IMG/VR virus record: IMGVR_UViG_2718217715_000005 | Origin: a virus | Taxonomy: Duplodnaviria > Heunggongvirae > Uroviricota > Caudoviricetes | DNA length: 64,000 nt | Reading direction: 5' to 3' (one strand) | Part shown: one piece after another, positions 1 through 6,000 of the stretch | How positions within the stretch are numbered: position 1 is the first letter of the stretch | Layout of the letters: every line of letters begins with the position of its first letter | Position numbers: made by a program

Positions 1-3000
1 GTATGTCCGGTGCGGGAGGATTTCTCGGCAGCATTGGTGACTGGCTGGGCGGAGCGGTGGCCAATGCAAAAGGCGGCGTGTATACCTCGGCAAACCTGAG
101 CGCGTACAGCAACAGCATTGTGGACACGCCCACGTACTTTGCGTTTGCAAAAGGGGCCGGGCTGATGGGGGAAGCCGGACCTGAAGCTATTATGCCCCTG
201 ACCCGGGCGGCGGATGGCTCGCTGGGCGTACGCGCCGTGGGCAGTATGAACGGCAGTGCTGGTCTGGTGTATTCCCCGGTCTACCACATCGCCATTCAGA
301 ATGACGGGGCTAACGGACAGATAGGGCCGGAGGCGGCAGGCAGTCTTGTGCAGCTGATTGACCAGCGGGTGCAGGCGGTGATGCTGTCCATGCGACGTGA
401 CGGAGGAATGCTGAGTGGCTGAGATAAAAACGCTGCATCTGGTCCCGCGTGAAGGGATGCAGGTGAGTGAGAAGCCGTCGGTGGTGAGGGTGCGGTTTGG
501 TGACGGTTATGAACAGCGCCGCCCCACAGGGCTGAATCCTCAACTGAAGACGTTTCAGGCGGTGTTCCGGGTGACGGATGAGTCAACCCGGCGCTGGCTG
601 GATGAATTTTTATCCTGGCATGGTGGTTACCGTGCCTTTTTGTGGCGACCGCCGAAACATAACCGGACGGTGAGGGTGGTGTGCCGGGAGTGGAGCGTCA
701 CGGATAACGCCCGGTACAGTGATTTCAGCTGTACGATTGAGCAGGTGGTGAACTGATGCAGGACATTCATGAAGAAAGTCTGAACGAGTCGGTTAAATCA
801 GAGCAGTCACCGCGGGTGGTGCTCTGGGAAATTGACCTGACGGTGCAGGGCGGTGAGCGGTATTTTTTCTGCAATGAGCTGAATGAAAAAGGGGAGGCGG
901 TTACCTGGCAGGGGCGGGAATATCAGGCATACCCGATTGACGGCAGCGGTTTTGAGATGAACGGGAAGGGCAGCAGTGCCCGCCCGTCACTGACGGTGTC
1001 CAATCTGTTCGGTCTGGTCACCGGAATGGCGGAGGACCTGCAGAGCCTGGTGGGGGCCACGGTGGTCCGCCGCCGGGTGTATGCCCGTTTTCTGGATGCG
1101 GTGAATTTTGTGGCGGGCAATCCGGAAGCGGACCCGGAGCAGGAGCTGAGAGACCGCTGGGTGGTGGAGCAGATGTCAGAGCTGACGGCCATGACAGCCT
1201 CGTTTGTGCTGGCAACACCGACGGAGACGGACGGAGCGCTGTTTCCCGGTCGCATTATGCTGGCGAATACCTGTATGTGGACCTACCGCTCTGATGAGTG
1301 TGGTTACACGGGCGGGGCAGTGGCGGATGAGTTCGACAACCCCACCACGGATATCCGTAAGGACAGATGCAGCAAGTGCATGCGCGGGTGTGAGATGCGC
1401 AGCATGGTGGCTAATTTTGGCGGTTTCCTTTCCATTAATAAACTTTCGCAGTAAATCCCGGTTTATGACACAGACTGAATCAGCGATTCTGGCGCATGCC
1501 CGGCGGTGTGCGCCTGCGGAGTCGTGCGGCTTCGTGATAAGCACGCCGGAGGGGGAGTGGTATATCCCTTGTGTGAATATTTCTGCAGAGCCGGAGGCGT
1601 ATTTTCGTATCGCACCGGAAGACTGGCTGCGGGCAGAGATGCAGGGGGAGATTGTGGCACTGGTCCACAGTCATCCCGGTGGGCTGCCCTGGCTGAGCGA
1701 GGCTGACCGGCGGCTGCAGATAAAAAGCGCACTGCCCTGGTGGCTGGTCTGCCGGGGTGACATTCACAAATTCCGCTGTGTGCCACATCTGACAGGACGG
1801 CGCTTTGAGCACGGGGTGACGGACTGTTACACGCTGTTCCGGGATGCTTATCATCTGGCGGGGACTGAAATGCCGGATTTTCATCGCGAGGATGGCTGGT
1901 GGCGCAACGGTCAGAACCTTTACCTGGACAATATGGCGGTCACCGGCTTTTACCGGGTGCCCCTGTCCTCTGCACAGGCGGGCGATATTCTGCTGTGCTG
2001 CTTTGGTGCTTCGGTACCGAACCATGCCGCCATTTACTGCGGCAACGGTGAGCTGCTTCACCATCTGCCTGAACAACTGAGTAAACGGGAGAGGTATTCC
2101 GAAAAATGGCAACGACGAACGCATTCTGTCTGGCGTCACCGCCACTGGCACGCATCTGCCTTCACGGGGATTTACAACGATTTGGCCGCCGCCTCAGCCT
2201 GTATGTGAACACGGCAGCGGAAGCCATCCGGGCGCTGTCGTTACAGGTGCCGGGCTTTCGCCGTCAGATGAACGAAGGCTGGTACCAGATACGTATTGCC
2301 GGTTATGACACGGCACCGGAGGCGGTGTACGCCCGTCTTCACGAACAGCTGGGTGAGGGAACGGTCATCCATATTGTGCCGCGACTGGCCGGGGCCGGAA
2401 AGGGTGGACTGCAGATTGTGCTGGGGGCGGCAGCCATCGTGGGCTCTTTCTTCACTGCCGGGGCATCAATGGCGTTATGGGGTTCAGCCCTGGCAGCCGG
2501 TGGTTTTTCTGCCACCACGATGCTGTTTTCACTTGGAGCCAGCATGATTCTGGGCGGTGTGGCCCAGATGCTGGCCCCGAAGGCAAAAACACCGGATTAC
2601 CGCGCAACGGATAACGGCAGACAGAACACGTACTTTTCCTCGCTGGATAACATGATTGCCCAGGGGAACCCGATGCCGGTGCCTTACGGGGAAATGCTGG
2701 TTGGCTCCCGCCGTATATCCCAGGACATCAGCACCCGTGATGAAGGCGGGGGCGGAACGGTCGTGGTTGTCGGGCGACAGGGATAAAACATAAAAAAATC
2801 CCGCAGTGATCGCGGAGCTGCGGGGACAGACAAATGAAGATCAATGTTAAGGAGTTGTTTTTGTTACTCGGGCAAAAAAACACTAACGCAGCGAAATTAT
2901 AAGCGCCACAGTCAGTGTGTGAAAATGTGAAGATATTCAGAATTTTTATGCCATTACCGGTTTTAACCAACAGGATTATCGGTGGGCATGAAAGAAAACC

Positions 3001-6000
3001 CCGGTATCTGCTGATACCGGGGTTTCTCTTTAGCATGGCAGAAATGTGTTTCATGCTTTTCGGGCGAAGGATATCCGACTTCTGTACGGAATGGCAAGTG
3101 GCGGTTAATTTATTCAGGGGAAGGCTGTATGGGAAAAGGTGGCGGTAAGGCACACACGCCTCGTGAGGCGAAGGATAATCTCAAATCCACGCAGATGATG
3201 AGTGTGATTGATGCGATTGGTGAGGGACCGATAGAAGGTCCGGTGAAGGGACTGCAGAGTATTCTGGTGAACAAAACCCCACTGACGGACACGGACGGCA
3301 ATCCCGTGATACACGGTGTGACCGCGGTCTGGCGTGCCGGGGAGCAGGAGCAGACACCACCGGAAGGCTTTGAGTCCTCCGGAGCTGAAACCGGACTGGG
3401 CGTGGAAGTGACGAAGGCAAAACCGGTGACGCGCACCATTACGTCCGCGAACATTGACCGCCTGCGGGTCACCTTCGGGGTGCAGTCACTGTTGGAGACC
3501 ACCTCAAAGGGCGACCGTAATCACTCTTCTGTCCGACTGCTGATTCAGTTGCAGCGTAACGGTAACTGGGTGACGGAAAAGGATGTCACCATTAACGGCA
3601 AGACCACCTCGCAGTTTCTGGCGTCGGTGATTCTGGATAATCTGCCTGAGCGGCCCTTTAACATCCGGATGGTCCGGGAGACAGCGGACAGCACCTCGGA
3701 CCAGCTGCAGAATAAGACGCTCTGGTCGTCATACACCGAAATCATCGATGTGAAACAGTGCTACCCGAACACGGCGATTGTGGGGCTGCAGGTGGATGCG
3801 GAGCAGTTTGGCGGTCAGCAGATGACGGTGAACTACCATATCCGCGGTCGCATCATCCAGGTACCGTCAAACTATGACCCGGAAAAACGCACGTACAGCG
3901 GCATCTGGGACGGCAGCCTGAAACCGGCATACAGCAACAACCCTGCCTGGTGCCTGTGGGACATGCTGACCCACCCGCGCTACGGAATGGGAAAACGCCT
4001 GGGGGCGGCGGATGTGGACAAGTGGGCGCTGTATGCCATTGCGCAGTACTGCGACCAGACGGTCCCGGATGGTTTCGGGGGCACAGAGCCGCGGATGACT
4101 TTCAATGCGTACCTGTCACAACAGCGTAAGGCGTGGGACGTTCTCAGTGATTTCTGCTCGGCGATGCGCTGTATGCCGGTATGGAACGGGCAGACGCTGA
4201 CGTTTGTGCAGGACCGTCCGTCAGATGTGGTGTGGCCCTACACCAGCAGTGATGTGGTGGTGGATGATAACGGCGTGGGGTTTCGCTACAGCTTCAGCGC
4301 CCTGAAGGACCGCCACACGGCGGTGGAGGTGAATTACACCGACCCGCAGAACGGCTGGCAGACCTCCACGGAACTGGTGGAAGACCCGGAAGCCATACTG
4401 CGCTACGGACGCAACCTGCTGAAGATGGATGCGTTCGGCTGCACCAGTCGCGGTCAGGCCCACCGTGCCGGGCTGTGGGTGATAAAGACCGGACTGCTGG
4501 AAACGCAGACGGTGGATTTCACGCTCGGGTCACAGGGGCTGCGTCACACACCCGATGACATTATTGAAATCTGTGATAACGACTATGCCGGGACCATGAC
4601 CGGCGGACGTGTCCTGTCCATCGATGCCGCCAGCCGCACCCTGACGCTGGACCGTGAGGTGACACTGCCGGAGACCGGTGCCGCCACGGTGAACCTGATT
4701 AACGGCAGCGGTAAGCCGGTGAGTGTGGACATCACCGCACACCCCGCGCCGGACCGGATACAGGTCAGCACCCTGCCTGATGGTGTGGAGACATACGGTG
4801 TATGGGGACTATCCCTGCCGTCACTGCGCCGTCGCCTGTTCCGCTGTGTCTCCGTCCGGGAAAACACGGACGGCACCTTTGCCATCACGGCGGTGCAGCA
4901 CGTACCGGAAAAAGAAGCCATCGTGGATAACGGTGCCCGCTTTGAGCCGCAGTCAGGCACCCTGAACAGCGTCATCCCTCCGGCAGTGCAGCACCTGACG
5001 GTGGAGGTGAGCGCAGCTGACGGTCAGTATCTGGCGCAGGCGAAATGGGACACGCCGAAGGTGGTGAAGGGCGTGAGCTTTATGCTTCGCCTGACCGTGG
5101 CCGCGGATGACGGCAGTGAGCGGCTGGTCAGCACGGCCCGGACGACGGAAACCACATACCGCTTCACGCAACTGGCGCCGGGGAACTACAGGCTGACAGT
5201 CCGGGCGGTAAATGCGTGGGGGCAGCAGGGCGATCCGGCGTCGGTATCGTTCCGGATTGCCGCACCGGCAGCGCCGTCACAGATTGAGCTGACACCGGGC
5301 TATTTTCAGATAACAGCGGTCCCGCGTCTTGCGGTGTATGACCCGACGGTACAGTTTGAGTTCTGGTTTTCGGAAACGCGGATTACCGATATCAGGCAGG
5401 TTGAAACCACAGCCCGCTACCTTGGCACGGGGCTGTACTGGATAGCCGCCAGTATCAATATCAAACCGGGCCATGATTATTACTTTTATATCCGCAGTGT
5501 GAACACCGTTGGCAAATCGGCATTTGTGGAGGCTGTTGGCCAGCCGAGTGATGATGCATCCGGCTATCTGGATTTTTTCAAAGGAGAGATAGGGAAAACC
5601 CATCTGGCTCAGGAGTTGTGGACTCAGATTGATAACGGTCAGCTTGCGCCTGACCTGGCGGAAATCAGAACGTCCATCACGGATGTCAGTAATGAAATCA
5701 CGCAGACCGTCAATAAGAAACTGGAAGACCAGAGTGCAGCGATCCAGCAGATACAGAAGGTTCAGGTTGATACAAATAATAACCTGAACAGCATGTGGGC
5801 AGTGAAGCTGCAGCAGATGCAGGACGGACGCCTTTATATTGCGGGTATCGGTGCCGGTATTGAGAACACCTCTGACGGCATGCAGAGTCAGGTGCTGCTG
5901 GCGGCAGACAGGATTGCGATGATTAATCCTGCGAATGGCAACACAAAGCCGATGTTTGTTGGTCAGGGCGATCAGATATTCATGAATGAAGTGTTCCTGA

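What the first reader, a model, noticed from the sequence alone, without database searches (positions are those of the whole stretch)
2787..3128. Terminator-bounded non-coding insert between tail genes I and J, present in both prophages (candidate sRNA or micro-ORF)
In lambda, I and J are adjacent. Here a 240-340 bp spacer separates them in both copies (2787..3128 and 54034..54273). The two spacers have diverged in sequence but each keeps a hairpin right after I, a conserved block (gaaaatgtgaagatattcagaatttttat / ggaaatgtgaagagtttcagaaattttat) and a strong GC hairpin plus U-tract just before J, built from different stem sequences (structure kept, sequence not). Both also open with a possible micro-ORF MKINV(K/M)ELF.... 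This fits a small transcript such as a prophage-encoded regulatory RNA.
Basis: seen in the sequence. Interest (0 to 1): 0.6.

Follow-up and report, generated by a model that had tools for sequence, protein, structure and literature searches.

The report
Known prophage sRNA genes, PasB family
The extra DNA between tail genes I and J in both prophages holds an already published Hfq-dependent small regulatory RNA gene (PasB in one copy, EcOnc22/23/24 in the other), read on the strand opposite to the tail genes, so the finding is real but not new.

Summary
Both prophages carry a spacer between tail genes I and J (2787-3128 and 54034-54273) with a hairpin after I, a conserved block and a GC hairpin before J.

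The spacer is a known sRNA locus read on the minus strand.
- Copy 1: the published PasB Northern probe matches 2797-2819 exactly. PasB's published EPEC coordinates map to 2874->2792 (-), with one mismatch in 83 nt.
- Copy 2: it matches the I-J spacers of Sakai prophages Sp11, Sp14 and Sp15 except one base outside the sRNA. These encode EcOnc22/23/24 (about 85 nt, unstable without Hfq), and that probe maps to 54068-54102.

- The hairpin after I, with its A-run, is the sRNA's terminator.
- The conserved "MKI" codons are the reverse complement of the sRNA's near-invariant UUAAUCUUC motif.
- The micro-ORF fails: 43 of 81 unique spacers have no start codon.
- The block sits at a fixed distance upstream of the sRNA promoter and repeats with every cassette in tandem arrays.
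- The hairpin before J is a separate plus-strand element that phage lambda also has.

Apparently unreported: PasB and EcOnc22-24 are homologues (75% identity), a family of at least six subtypes, an invariant TGTGA-N6-TCAGA operator-like site, and arrays of 2-4 cassettes.

The parts
2106..2786 (+). Tail assembly gene I of prophage 1 (context)
   Evidence: ORF. Pfam PF06805 Lambda_tail_I, E 2.3e-16. RefSeq annotates identical DNA as 'tail assembly protein'.
2792..2889 (-). PasB sRNA gene, copy 1. The published extent maps to 2874->2792 (83 nt). The promoter-inferred start is about 2889 (98 nt).
   Evidence: The PasB Northern probe AATCCCGCAGTGATCGCGGAGCT matches the + strand at 2797-2819 exactly. 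EPEC NC_011601.1 1466343->1466261 (-) aligns here with 1 mismatch, at position 27.
2792..2824 (-). Intrinsic terminator of PasB: stem CCCGCAG (2824..2818) / CUGCGGG (2806..2800), then A and U7 (2798..2792)
   Evidence: Terminator scan on the - strand. It is the only consensus helix in 25 diverse family members: 7 bp with one compensatory G-C to A-U change. The published 3' end falls on the last U.
2836..2844 (-). Near-invariant single-stranded motif UU(G/A)AUCUUC just 5' of the terminator, the putative seed.
   Evidence: Conservation line. Unpaired in the centroid folds. The preprint proposes the PasB seed in this position.
2896..2923 (-). Sigma-70 promoter of PasB: -35 TTCACA (2923..2918), 16-bp spacer, -10 TATAAT (2901..2896)
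   Evidence: Promoter scan, 11 of 12 matches. The position is conserved without gaps across 60 unique variants.
2923..2949 (.). Conserved block AAATGTGA-AGATAT-TCAGA-ATTTTTAT, a promoter-upstream operator-like site (CRP-like half-sites, centre 2933.5)
   Evidence: Exact TGTGA-N6-TCAGA in 67 of 67 intact cassettes selected through the terminator. N6 varies at 3 positions. Fixed spacing to the -10. Repeats with each cassette in arrays.
2950..3128 (+). J-side module specific to copy 1: a stem-loop at 2950-2987, then a strong bidirectional terminator-like hairpin (stem 2999-3008/3013-3022, T-tract 3023-3031), then about 100 nt leading to J
   Evidence: Fold of -39.6 kcal/mol, z = -6.08. This module is swapped for the copy-2-type hairpin in EPEC although PasB is kept. 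Function not established.
3129..6389 (+). Host-specificity gene J of prophage 1 (context). It appears frameshifted near its 3' end.
   Evidence: Pfam PF24801 and PF13550. 85% identical to the J of copy 2 over 1075 aa. The last 69 aa are encoded in another frame at 6392-6607.
53356..54033 (+). Tail assembly gene I of prophage 2 (context)
   Evidence: ORF. Homologous 3' end.
54038..54128 (-). EcOnc22/23/24-type sRNA gene, copy 2 (about 85-91 nt), homologue of PasB
   Evidence: The spacer is identical to Sakai Sp15, Sp14 and Sp11 spacers except 1 nt in the J-side hairpin loop. The EcOnc22/23/24 probe maps to the + strand at 54068-54102. 75% identical to PasB, blastn E 1e-15.
54038..54070 (-). Intrinsic terminator of the copy-2 sRNA: CCCGCAG (54070..54064) / CUGCGGG (54052..54046), then A and U7 (54044..54038)
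54135..54162 (-). Weaker promoter of the copy-2 sRNA: -10 AATAAT (54140..54135), poor -35 TCCGGC (54162..54157)
   Evidence: Aligned column for column with the copy-1 promoter. Not picked up by the consensus scan.
54162..54188 (.). Conserved block AAATGTGA-AGAGTT-TCAGA-AATTTTAT
54200..54231 (+). Plus-strand intrinsic-terminator-like hairpin before J: ACAGGCACCC / GGGTGCCTGT, loop TTCG, then a T-tract
   Evidence: Terminator scan. Fold z = -6.07. Across 17 alleles 98.2% of cells are paired, one pair shows C-G/U-A/U-G, and 7 cells are G-U pairs valid only on the + strand. An analogous hairpin is present in lambda.
54274..57753 (+). Host-specificity gene J of prophage 2 (GTG start; context)
   Evidence: RefSeq annotation of identical DNA.

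Best explanation
Each I-J spacer holds one self-contained small-RNA gene transcribed from the minus strand, antiparallel to the tail operon. Its order on that strand is: upstream operator-like block, sigma-70 promoter, a largely unstructured body of about 60 nt, and a 7-bp GC terminator stem with a U7 tail. Copy 1 is PasB, probably the common PasB-2 allele. Copy 2 is the EHEC sRNA EcOnc22/23/24. The two are homologues within one diversified family.

Shown by others: the RNAs are about 83-85 nt, they depend on Hfq for stability, and PasB forms Hfq-mediated chimeras with about 37 partner RNAs.

Inferred here: they act in trans as Hfq-dependent base-pairing regulators. The terminator hairpin and U-tail serve as the Hfq-binding module, and the near-invariant single-stranded UUAAUCUUC motif just 5' of the terminator serves as the seed. 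The variable 5' part would differentiate target sets between subtypes.

The conserved block is most likely a protein-binding site that controls the sRNA promoter, possibly for cAMP-CRP. The GC hairpin before J is not part of the sRNA gene. It is an older plus-strand element of the I-J junction, either a terminator or an mRNA-end structure, upstream of which the sRNA cassette was inserted like a moron.

The confidence given applies to the identity, strand and gene anatomy. The seed and trans-acting mechanism I rate at about 0.7, a regulatory protein site in the block at about 0.6, and CRP specifically at about 0.25.
For: Identity
- Exact PasB probe match at 2797-2819, and published coordinates aligned with 82 of 83 identical.
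- Copy 2's sRNA region is identical to the three Sakai spacers that hold EcOnc22/23/24, and that probe maps to 54068-54102.

Strand and gene anatomy
- Both probes have the + strand sequence.
- Minus-strand promoter TTCACA-16-TATAAT and minus-strand terminator.
- The same layout holds in 60 unique variants.
- The terminator is the only consensus helix, with one compensatory change.

Hfq dependence and trans partners (published)
- log2FC -6.8 and -2.4 in the delta-hfq comparison, 37 interactions, and almost always the second RNA in chimeras.
- EcOnc22 'destabilised' in delta-hfq, about 85 nt.

Homology of the two copies
- 75% identity, blastn E 1e-15, same position and architecture.

Seed
- UUAAUCUUC is near-invariant across subtypes. 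The preprint places the PasB seed there.

Block as promoter element
- 67 of 67 intact cassettes carry it, with invariant half-sites, variable N6 and fixed distance to the -10.
- One block per cassette in arrays, but only one J-side hairpin.
- The copy-2 promoter is poor, yet the RNA is readily detected.

Expression pattern
- PasB is higher in overnight LB than in DMEM mid-log, opposite to the CRP-repressed Spot 42.

Hairpin as a separate element
- Lambda has one without an sRNA. G-U pairs favour the + strand.
Against: - No expression data exist for this particular strain.
- The 5' end is uncertain by about 15 nt: published 83 nt against 98 nt from the promoter.
- No target or seed has been verified experimentally for PasB or EcOnc22-24. 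A 2021 review lists the EcOnc22 target as unknown, and no common target motif was reported for PasB.
- The CRP reading is weak. The pattern is not enriched in the window (4 found, 2.4 expected). The inferred centre is about -44.5 rather than -41.5 or -61.5. The invariant G in TCAGA departs from the CRP consensus C.
- The higher level in overnight LB is equally explained by stationary phase.
- The terminator stem is almost invariant, so covariation support for it is thin.
Confidence: 0.9

Rival explanations
1. A plus-strand small RNA. It would be a transcript or a 3'-UTR-derived fragment of the I mRNA that ends at the GC hairpin and U-tract before J, with the conserved block as its seed.
For: - The plus-strand hairpins are very stable and followed by T-runs.
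- The hairpin shows compensatory and G-U changes that fit the + strand.
- The block lies directly upstream of the hairpin in copy 2 and in EPEC.
Against: - No plus-strand sigma-70 promoter was found in either spacer.
- The Sakai Hfq-CRAC catalogue has no tail-sense peak at the three I-J spacers.
- In arrays the block repeats with every minus-strand cassette, while the hairpin occurs once.
- Lambda has the hairpin without the block.
- In copy 1 the block and the hairpin are 50 nt apart and separated by a different module.
Confidence: 0.1
2. A translated micro-ORF, MKINV(K/M)ELF..., in the late operon mRNA.
For: - Both window copies have an ATG, an SD-like GGAG/GGGA upstream and a similar N-terminus.
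- 3 of the 4 differences in the first 9 codons are synonymous.
Against: - 43 of 81 unique spacers have ACG, ACA or ATA in place of the start codon.
- ORF length varies from 12 to 57 codons, with frameshifted tails caused by changes in A-run length.
- The conserved nucleotides coincide with the sRNA's near-invariant motif on the other strand.
Confidence: 0.03
3. The primary role is cis-antisense. The sRNA is fully complementary to the I-J intercistronic part of the late tail transcript and controls its processing, or J expression, during induction. Alternatively the late transcript sponges the sRNA.
For: - The position between I and J and the antisense orientation are kept in all 194 of 197 spacers that retain an intact cassette, across subtypes.
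- Complementarity follows from the gene's position.
- Cassettes sit immediately after the I stop codon.
Against: - PasB has about 37 trans partners on Hfq in uninduced cells.
- The late operon is silent in lysogens.
- The same site also accepts unrelated cargo (sodC) and multiple cassettes, as expected for a passive moron insertion site.
- Copy 1's prophage has a frameshifted J, yet keeps the sRNA intact.
Confidence: 0.15
4. The conserved block is an UP element or simply AT-rich promoter-upstream DNA, not a transcription-factor site.
For: It is AT-rich and lies at about -37 to -63 relative to the inferred start, where UP elements sit.
Against: The G/C-containing pentamers TGTGA and TCAGA are invariant, while the A/T-rich N6 between them varies. 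This is the opposite of what an A/T-tract element predicts.
Confidence: 0.2

Closest known systems
PasB (E2348CN_0006), Hfq-dependent sRNA of EPEC E2348/69 prophage PP6 (Pearl Mizrahi et al. 2021, PMC8550237; Zhu, Shabalina and Storz 2026 preprint)
   Same: - Copy 1 is this gene, with 82 of 83 nt identical and an exact probe match.
- Same position between I and J, same antisense orientation, same terminator and U7 tail.
- The single difference is at position 27, where the preprint's PasB-2 variant differs.
   Different: - The J-side part of the spacer is a different module from that in EPEC.
- Expression in this strain has not been tested.
EcOnc22/EcOnc23/EcOnc24, Hfq-CRAC sRNAs of E. coli O157:H7 Sakai prophages Sp15, Sp14 and Sp11 (Tree et al. 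2014, PMC4104026)
   Same: - The sRNA region of copy 2 is identical to all three Sakai copies.
- Same 240-bp spacer, about 85 nt by Northern, destabilised without Hfq.
   Different: - One base differs in the loop of the J-side hairpin.
- The published peak coordinates refer to NC_002695.1 and need an offset of about +128 to fit NC_002695.2. That offset is inferred, not verified.
AgvB and AsxR anti-sRNAs (Tree et al. 2014; Rfam RF02702 and RF02703)
   Same: Prophage-encoded, short and Hfq-binding, found in the same group of strains.
   Different: - They lie at the PR' moron site downstream of Q, not in the tail operon.
- They are 51-60 nt with a conserved 3' domain unrelated to this sequence.
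- No Rfam hit in either spacer.
Morons of lambdoid phages: independent promoter-gene-terminator units inserted between late genes (Juhala et al. 2000, as cited). Examples from my own knowledge are lom and bor of lambda and prophage sodC.
   Same: - A self-contained transcription unit inserted between two adjacent late genes.
- The same I-J site holds sodC in other phages.
   Different: The cargo is a non-coding RNA in reverse orientation, sometimes in tandem arrays of 2-4.
cAMP-CRP binding site (consensus AAATGTGATCTAGATCACATTT; my own knowledge)
   Same: TGTGA-N6-TCAGA matches 9 of 10 core positions with exact spacing, and 14 of 22 positions overall. The flanks are A/T-rich.
   Different: - The invariant G in the second half-site departs from the consensus C.
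- The inferred centre of about -44.5 is not a canonical activating position.
- No binding data exist.

Membership tests
PasB sRNA (EPEC) | Sequence identity to the published PasB gene at its published coordinates | tested here: met
   Copy 1, 2874..2792 (-), is 82/83 identical to NC_011601.1 1466343->1466261. Copy 2 is only 75% identical.
PasB sRNA (EPEC) | Detected by the published Northern probe | tested here: met
   The probe AATCCCGCAGTGATCGCGGAGCT matches the window + strand at 2797-2819 with 0 mismatches.
PasB sRNA (EPEC) | Located between two phage structural genes, antisense to them ('(> <) >') | tested here: met
   Between I (PF06805) and J (PF24801), on the opposite strand.
PasB sRNA (EPEC) | Rho-independent terminator with a U-tract of at least 4 | tested here: met
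   7-bp GC stem plus U7 in both copies.
PasB sRNA (EPEC) | Hfq-dependent stability and Hfq-mediated RNA partners | not testable with these tools
   Published for the EPEC allele only. Not measured for this strain.
EcOnc22/23/24 (EHEC Sakai) | Sequence identity to the Sakai loci and match to the probe | tested here: met
   The copy-2 spacer equals the Sp15, Sp14 and Sp11 spacers except 1 nt outside the sRNA. The probe maps to 54068-54102 with 1 substitution and 2 indels relative to the printed oligo, and the same holds in Sakai itself.
EcOnc22/23/24 (EHEC Sakai) | The Hfq-CRAC peak lies on the sRNA body | tested here: inconclusive
   The published peaks are in NC_002695.1 coordinates. With an offset of about +128 for NC_002695.2 they cover 54122..54062 (-). 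All three loci need the same offset, but it was not verified independently.
AgvB/AsxR anti-sRNAs | Match to RF02702/RF02703, and location at the PR' moron site | tested here: not met
   No hit at the gathering threshold or at E<=10 in either spacer. The location is the tail operon.
Any Rfam family | Covariance-model hit at or above the gathering score | tested here: not met
   The best hit in the spacers scores 27.3 bits against a gathering score of 48 (a Streptococcus sRNA, terminator only). Rfam 15 appears to have no PasB/EcOnc22 model.
Small protein gene (micro-ORF) | Start codon and reading frame conserved among homologues | tested here: not met
   43 of 81 unique spacers lack a start codon, and ORF length ranges from 12 to 57 codons.
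cAMP-CRP-dependent promoter | TGTGA-N6-TCACA-like site | tested here: inconclusive
   9 of 10 core positions match, and the site is invariant in 67 of 67 cassettes. The pattern is not enriched in the window, and the deviating G is itself invariant.
cAMP-CRP-dependent promoter | Site centred at -41.5, -61.5 or a helical repeat of these | tested here: not met
   The centre is 32.5 bp upstream of the -10 hexamer's upstream edge, which puts it at about -44.5 for a standard start site. The start site is inferred, not mapped.
Intrinsic terminator (J-side hairpin, + strand) | GC-rich stem followed by a T-run, maintained by compensatory change | tested here: met
   Whether it actually terminates transcription is not testable here.

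The most novel reading that the evidence does not exclude
The I-J junction of lambdoid phages may be a dedicated landing site for a diversified family of Hfq-dependent sRNA cassettes, of which PasB and EcOnc22-24 are two named members. There are at least six subtypes, and some phages stack two to four cassettes in tandem. Each cassette carries the same invariant TGTGA-N6-TCAGA operator at a fixed distance from its promoter. One host or phage regulator, possibly cAMP-CRP, would then switch the whole family on together, while the variable 5' regions give each subtype its own targets. 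The published PasB census used BLAST word size 28, so it would have counted only one subtype and underestimated how common the family is, notably in O157:H7, which has three copies.
Probability: 0.3. Interest if true: 0.5.

Novelty: already known. Interest (0 to 1): 0.3.

Why it matters
The sRNAs themselves are already in the literature, so the main value is a correct annotation. RefSeq and Rfam leave this locus blank. A plausible-looking micro-ORF and a plausible-looking plus-strand RNA can both be set aside.

The side results would matter to people working on EHEC/EPEC riboregulation:
- They link two separately named sRNAs from two pathotypes into one family.
- They show that the family is broader than the published census suggests.
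- They point to a testable shared control element upstream of every family member.
- They show that phages can carry these sRNA genes as multi-copy arrays at a fixed moron site that also takes sodC.

Tried and rejected
- Rfam at gathering and at permissive thresholds: nothing in either spacer.
- AgvB/AsxR identity: rejected on location and sequence.
- PasA, PasC and PasD: these lie in the Q/lysis region, not here.
- Micro-ORF: rejected.
- The 141-aa minus-strand ORF 2728..3153 spanning spacer 1: open in only 6 of 20 close variants, so spurious.
- Plus-strand promoter in the block: none found by the scan or by reading the sequence.
- CRP pattern enrichment in the window: not significant.
- Structure in the sRNA body: RNAalifold finds only the terminator, and single-sequence folds of copy 1 are no better than shuffles (z about -0.9).
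- Genome-contig scan with protein I: only 12 loci, several of them probable contaminants and none informative.
- Extracting PasB's RIL-seq partner list to test the seed: phrase search does not work across the table's tab-separated cells, and look-ups were running out.
- A literature search for sRNAs between tail assembly and host-specificity genes: nothing relevant.

Full report
**1. The observation**

The two spacers are real. In copy 1, gene I ends at 2786 and J starts at 3129, a gap of 342 bp. In copy 2, I ends at 54033 and J starts with GTG at 54274, a gap of 240 bp. Pfam confirms the flanking genes as lambda tail assembly protein I (PF06805) and tip attachment protein J (PF24801, PF13550). 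RefSeq annotates identical DNA in other genomes the same way, with nothing in between.

All the described features are present:
- the hairpin after I (CCCGCAG/CTGCGGG at 2800-2824 and 54046-54070);
- the conserved block (2921-2949 and 54160-54188);
- a GC hairpin with a T-run before J, built from different stems (2999-3022 and 54200-54223);
- the MKINV(K/M)ELF ORFs.

**2. What it is**

Consensus scans put a near-perfect sigma-70 promoter on the minus strand of spacer 1: TTCACA, a 16-bp spacer, then TATAAT, at 2923..2896. They also read the hairpin after I as a minus-strand terminator, because the A7 run that precedes it on the plus strand becomes a U7 tail on the minus strand. Rfam has no family that hits either spacer.

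The literature settles the identity of copy 1. Table S6 of Pearl Mizrahi et al. 2021 (PMC8550237) lists PasB in EPEC E2348/69 as follows:

| Property | Value |
|---|---|
| Location | NC_011601.1, minus strand, 1466343->1466261 |
| Length | 83 nt |
| Prophage | PP6 |
| Orientation relative to neighbours | '(> <) >' |
| Northern probe | AATCCCGCAGTGATCGCGGAGCT |

That probe is the window's plus strand at 2797-2819, with no mismatch. The EPEC locus lies between 'tail assembly protein' and 'gpJ'. The published PasB extent aligns to window 2874->2792 (-) with a single difference, at position 27. The 2026 Pas preprint says its PasB-2 variant differs at that same position.

Copy 2 is also published. 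Table S2 of Tree et al. 2014 (PMC4104026) lists the homologous trio EcOnc22, EcOnc23 and EcOnc24 in Sakai prophages Sp15, Sp14 and Sp11. They are about 85 nt by Northern and 'destabilised' in delta-hfq. These coordinates fall in the 240-bp I-J spacers of those prophages, on the strand opposite to the tail genes. The three Sakai spacers are identical to window copy 2 except for one base in the loop of the J-side hairpin. The EcOnc22/23/24 Northern probe maps to the window plus strand at 54068-54102.

The printed CRAC peak coordinates refer to NC_002695.1. All three loci need the same offset of about +128 bp to fit NC_002695.2, whose sequence is 128 bp longer by my recollection of the older version's length. 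With that offset the peak covers 54122..54062 (-), which is the sRNA body without the terminator. The offset is inferred, not verified.

**3. The two copies are homologues in a wider family**

PasB and the copy-2 sRNA are 75% identical overall and 83% identical over 71 nt. Blastn finds the relationship (E 1e-15), but megablast does not. They share position, orientation and architecture.

Sixty unique variants collected from viral contigs align without gaps through the promoter and show the same order of parts: -35, -10, a conserved CUGCGUUA start region, a U-run, a variable body, a near-invariant UUAAUCUUC, then the terminator and U7 tail. At least six diverged subtypes exist. One is carried by an Stx2a phage whose I protein is only 71% identical to the window's.

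Neither source I could read states the link between the two names. Table S6 lists no EHEC homologue for PasB. The 2026 preprint never mentions EcOnc, and it searched E. coli genomes with word size 28. That setting cannot bridge the two subtypes. A 2021 review lists the target of EcOnc22-24 as unknown.

The copy-1-type spacer occurs in 1612 of 5426 complete E. coli genomes. The copy-2 type occurs in 781, with a median of 3 places per genome.

**4. Structure and likely mechanism**

RNAalifold on 25 diverse members finds one consensus helix, the 7-bp terminator stem. It carries one compensatory G-C to A-U change, and the body is open. Single-sequence folds agree. This is the usual build of an Hfq-dependent trans-acting sRNA (established knowledge).

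The published data support that role, although the column meanings in these tables are partly my inference from the table legends:
- PasB falls by log2 6.8 and 2.4 in the two sheets of the delta-hfq comparison.
- It has 37 recorded interactions.
- It is almost always the second RNA in chimeras.
- It yields 258 and 1820 chimeric fragments in the two conditions.

I infer that UUAAUCUUC, single-stranded and just 5' of the terminator, is the seed. The preprint proposes the same region for PasB. This has not been tested. I could not retrieve the partner list to check complementarity.

**5. The micro-ORF**

Of 81 unique spacers, 38 have ATG at the homologous position and 43 have ACG, ACA or ATA. Where the ORF is open, its length ranges from 12 to 57 codons with frameshifted tails. 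The conserved 'ATGAAGATTAA' is the reverse complement of the sRNA's near-invariant motif, which explains the apparent codon-like conservation. A 141-aa minus-strand ORF across spacer 1 is open in only 6 of 20 close variants. Neither ORF is credible.

**6. The conserved block**

I selected cassettes through their terminator, independently of the block. That gave 73 unique sequences:
- 3 are unrelated chance matches;
- 3 have had the promoter region replaced by a sodC insertion;
- all 67 others carry an exact TGTGA-N6-TCAGA.

Variation is confined to three N6 positions and a few flanking bases, and the distance to the -10 is constant. In spacers that hold two or four cassettes, each cassette has its own block, while the J-side hairpin occurs once. 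The block therefore belongs to the sRNA promoter and looks like a site for a dimeric DNA-binding protein.

The block resembles a CRP site, matching 9 of 10 core positions with exact spacing. PasB is higher in overnight static LB than in DMEM mid-log culture, the opposite of the CRP-repressed Spot 42. The copy-2 promoter is poor yet clearly expressed.

Several points weigh against CRP specifically:
- the pattern is not enriched in the window;
- the inferred centre is about -44.5;
- the deviating G in TCAGA is itself invariant;
- stationary phase would explain the expression difference equally well.

I rate "regulatory protein-binding site" as likely and "CRP" as possible.

**7. The hairpin before J**

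The hairpin before J is a plus-strand element. Across 17 alleles, 98.2% of cells are paired. One pair runs C-G, U-G and U-A, and seven cells are G-U pairs that would be A-C mismatches on the other strand. The T-run follows on the plus side.

Lambda, ev017 and PhiR49_1 have an analogous hairpin plus T-run in their 60-bp gap with no sRNA. EPEC combines the copy-1-type PasB with the copy-2-type hairpin. The hairpin is therefore an older feature of the junction, and the sRNA cassette was inserted upstream of it in the manner of a moron.

Its function is not established. It could terminate non-antiterminated read-through before J, or serve as an mRNA-end or processing structure. No tail-sense Hfq peak is listed at these junctions in Sakai.

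**8. Verdict**

The finding is a correct detection of a real regulatory RNA locus, but the RNA is already known under two names.

Four things appear to be new, and all are modest: the homology between PasB and EcOnc22-24, the breadth of the family, the invariant promoter-upstream operator, and the tandem cassette arrays.

Noticed in passing
Related loci: viral contigs L043, L053 and L223, and the 421-425 bp and 914 bp I-J spacers: Some phages carry 2 or 4 sRNA cassettes in tandem between I and J. Each has its own terminator, body, promoter and TGTGA-N6-TCAGA block, and short remnants resembling the 3' end of I lie between cassettes. Only one J-side hairpin is present, at the end. The divergent second cassette ('type 5') occurs in 27 of 5426 complete E. 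coli genomes and is unannotated.
   Followed up: partly
Related loci L208, L213, L221, L222, L224 and L131 (I-J spacers of 848-903 bp): The same junction carries a Cu/Zn superoxide dismutase gene (sodC, PF00080, E 8e-32) on the minus strand. In the 848 and 851 bp forms it replaces the sRNA promoter and block but leaves the sRNA body and terminator downstream of sodC on the same strand. In the 903 bp form it sits on the J side of the block.
   Followed up: partly
L217 (phage lambda NC_001416) 15445-15504; also L215 and L216: Lambda's own 60-bp I-J gap contains a plus-strand GC hairpin (ACCGCC/GGCGGT) followed by TTTTGTCATTT, directly before the J Shine-Dalgarno. I know of no assigned function.
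   Followed up: partly
window 2950-3128: Copy 1 has a J-side module that EPEC PP6 and copy 2 lack. It holds a stem-loop (2950-2987) and a very stable bidirectional terminator-like hairpin (2999-3022; -39.6 kcal/mol, z = -6), followed by about 100 nt that include a weak minus-strand promoter-like site (3097..3068). Its function is unknown.
   Followed up: partly
window 6380-6607: The J gene of prophage 1 stops at 6389 after 1086 codons. The last 69 residues of a full-length J are encoded in a different frame at 6392-6607 (64% identical to the C-terminus of copy 2's J). J looks frameshifted, so prophage 1 is probably tail-defective although its sRNA gene is intact.
   Followed up: partly
window 15769-15885 (-) and 41744-41860 (+): Two identical ALIL pseudoknot hits (121.5 bits each) lie in inverted orientation about 26 kb apart. 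By my own knowledge this is the frameshift signal of IS3-family transposases, so they could bracket an invertible or composite segment.
   Followed up: no
window 18007-18058 (-), 25268-25442 (+), 29736-29808 and 29912-29985 (+), 30759-30931 (+): Other known prophage RNAs in the window: DicF, sok (hok/sok antitoxin), two tRNA genes and STnc100. The 2026 preprint relates STnc100 to PasD.
   Followed up: no
L122, L124 and L131 (genome contigs): Short contigs filed under Streptomyces flavalbus, Parendozoicomonas haliclonae and a Clostridiales MAG encode protein I at 89-98% identity to this E. coli prophage. They are probably E. coli/phage contamination in those assemblies.
   Followed up: no
PMC4104026, supplement 1, probe table: The printed EcOnc22/23/24 probe (GGGAGAGAACGATGAAGATTAACTGATGAGTTA) differs from the Sakai genome by one substitution and two missing bases in its 3' third. 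This is either a transcription error in the PDF text or an imperfect oligo.
   Followed up: no
window 2787-3128 and 54034-54273; RefSeq records H1-H27: Neither RefSeq/PGAP annotation nor Rfam 15 marks these experimentally supported sRNA genes, although the spacers occur in well over a thousand complete E. coli genomes.
   Followed up: yes
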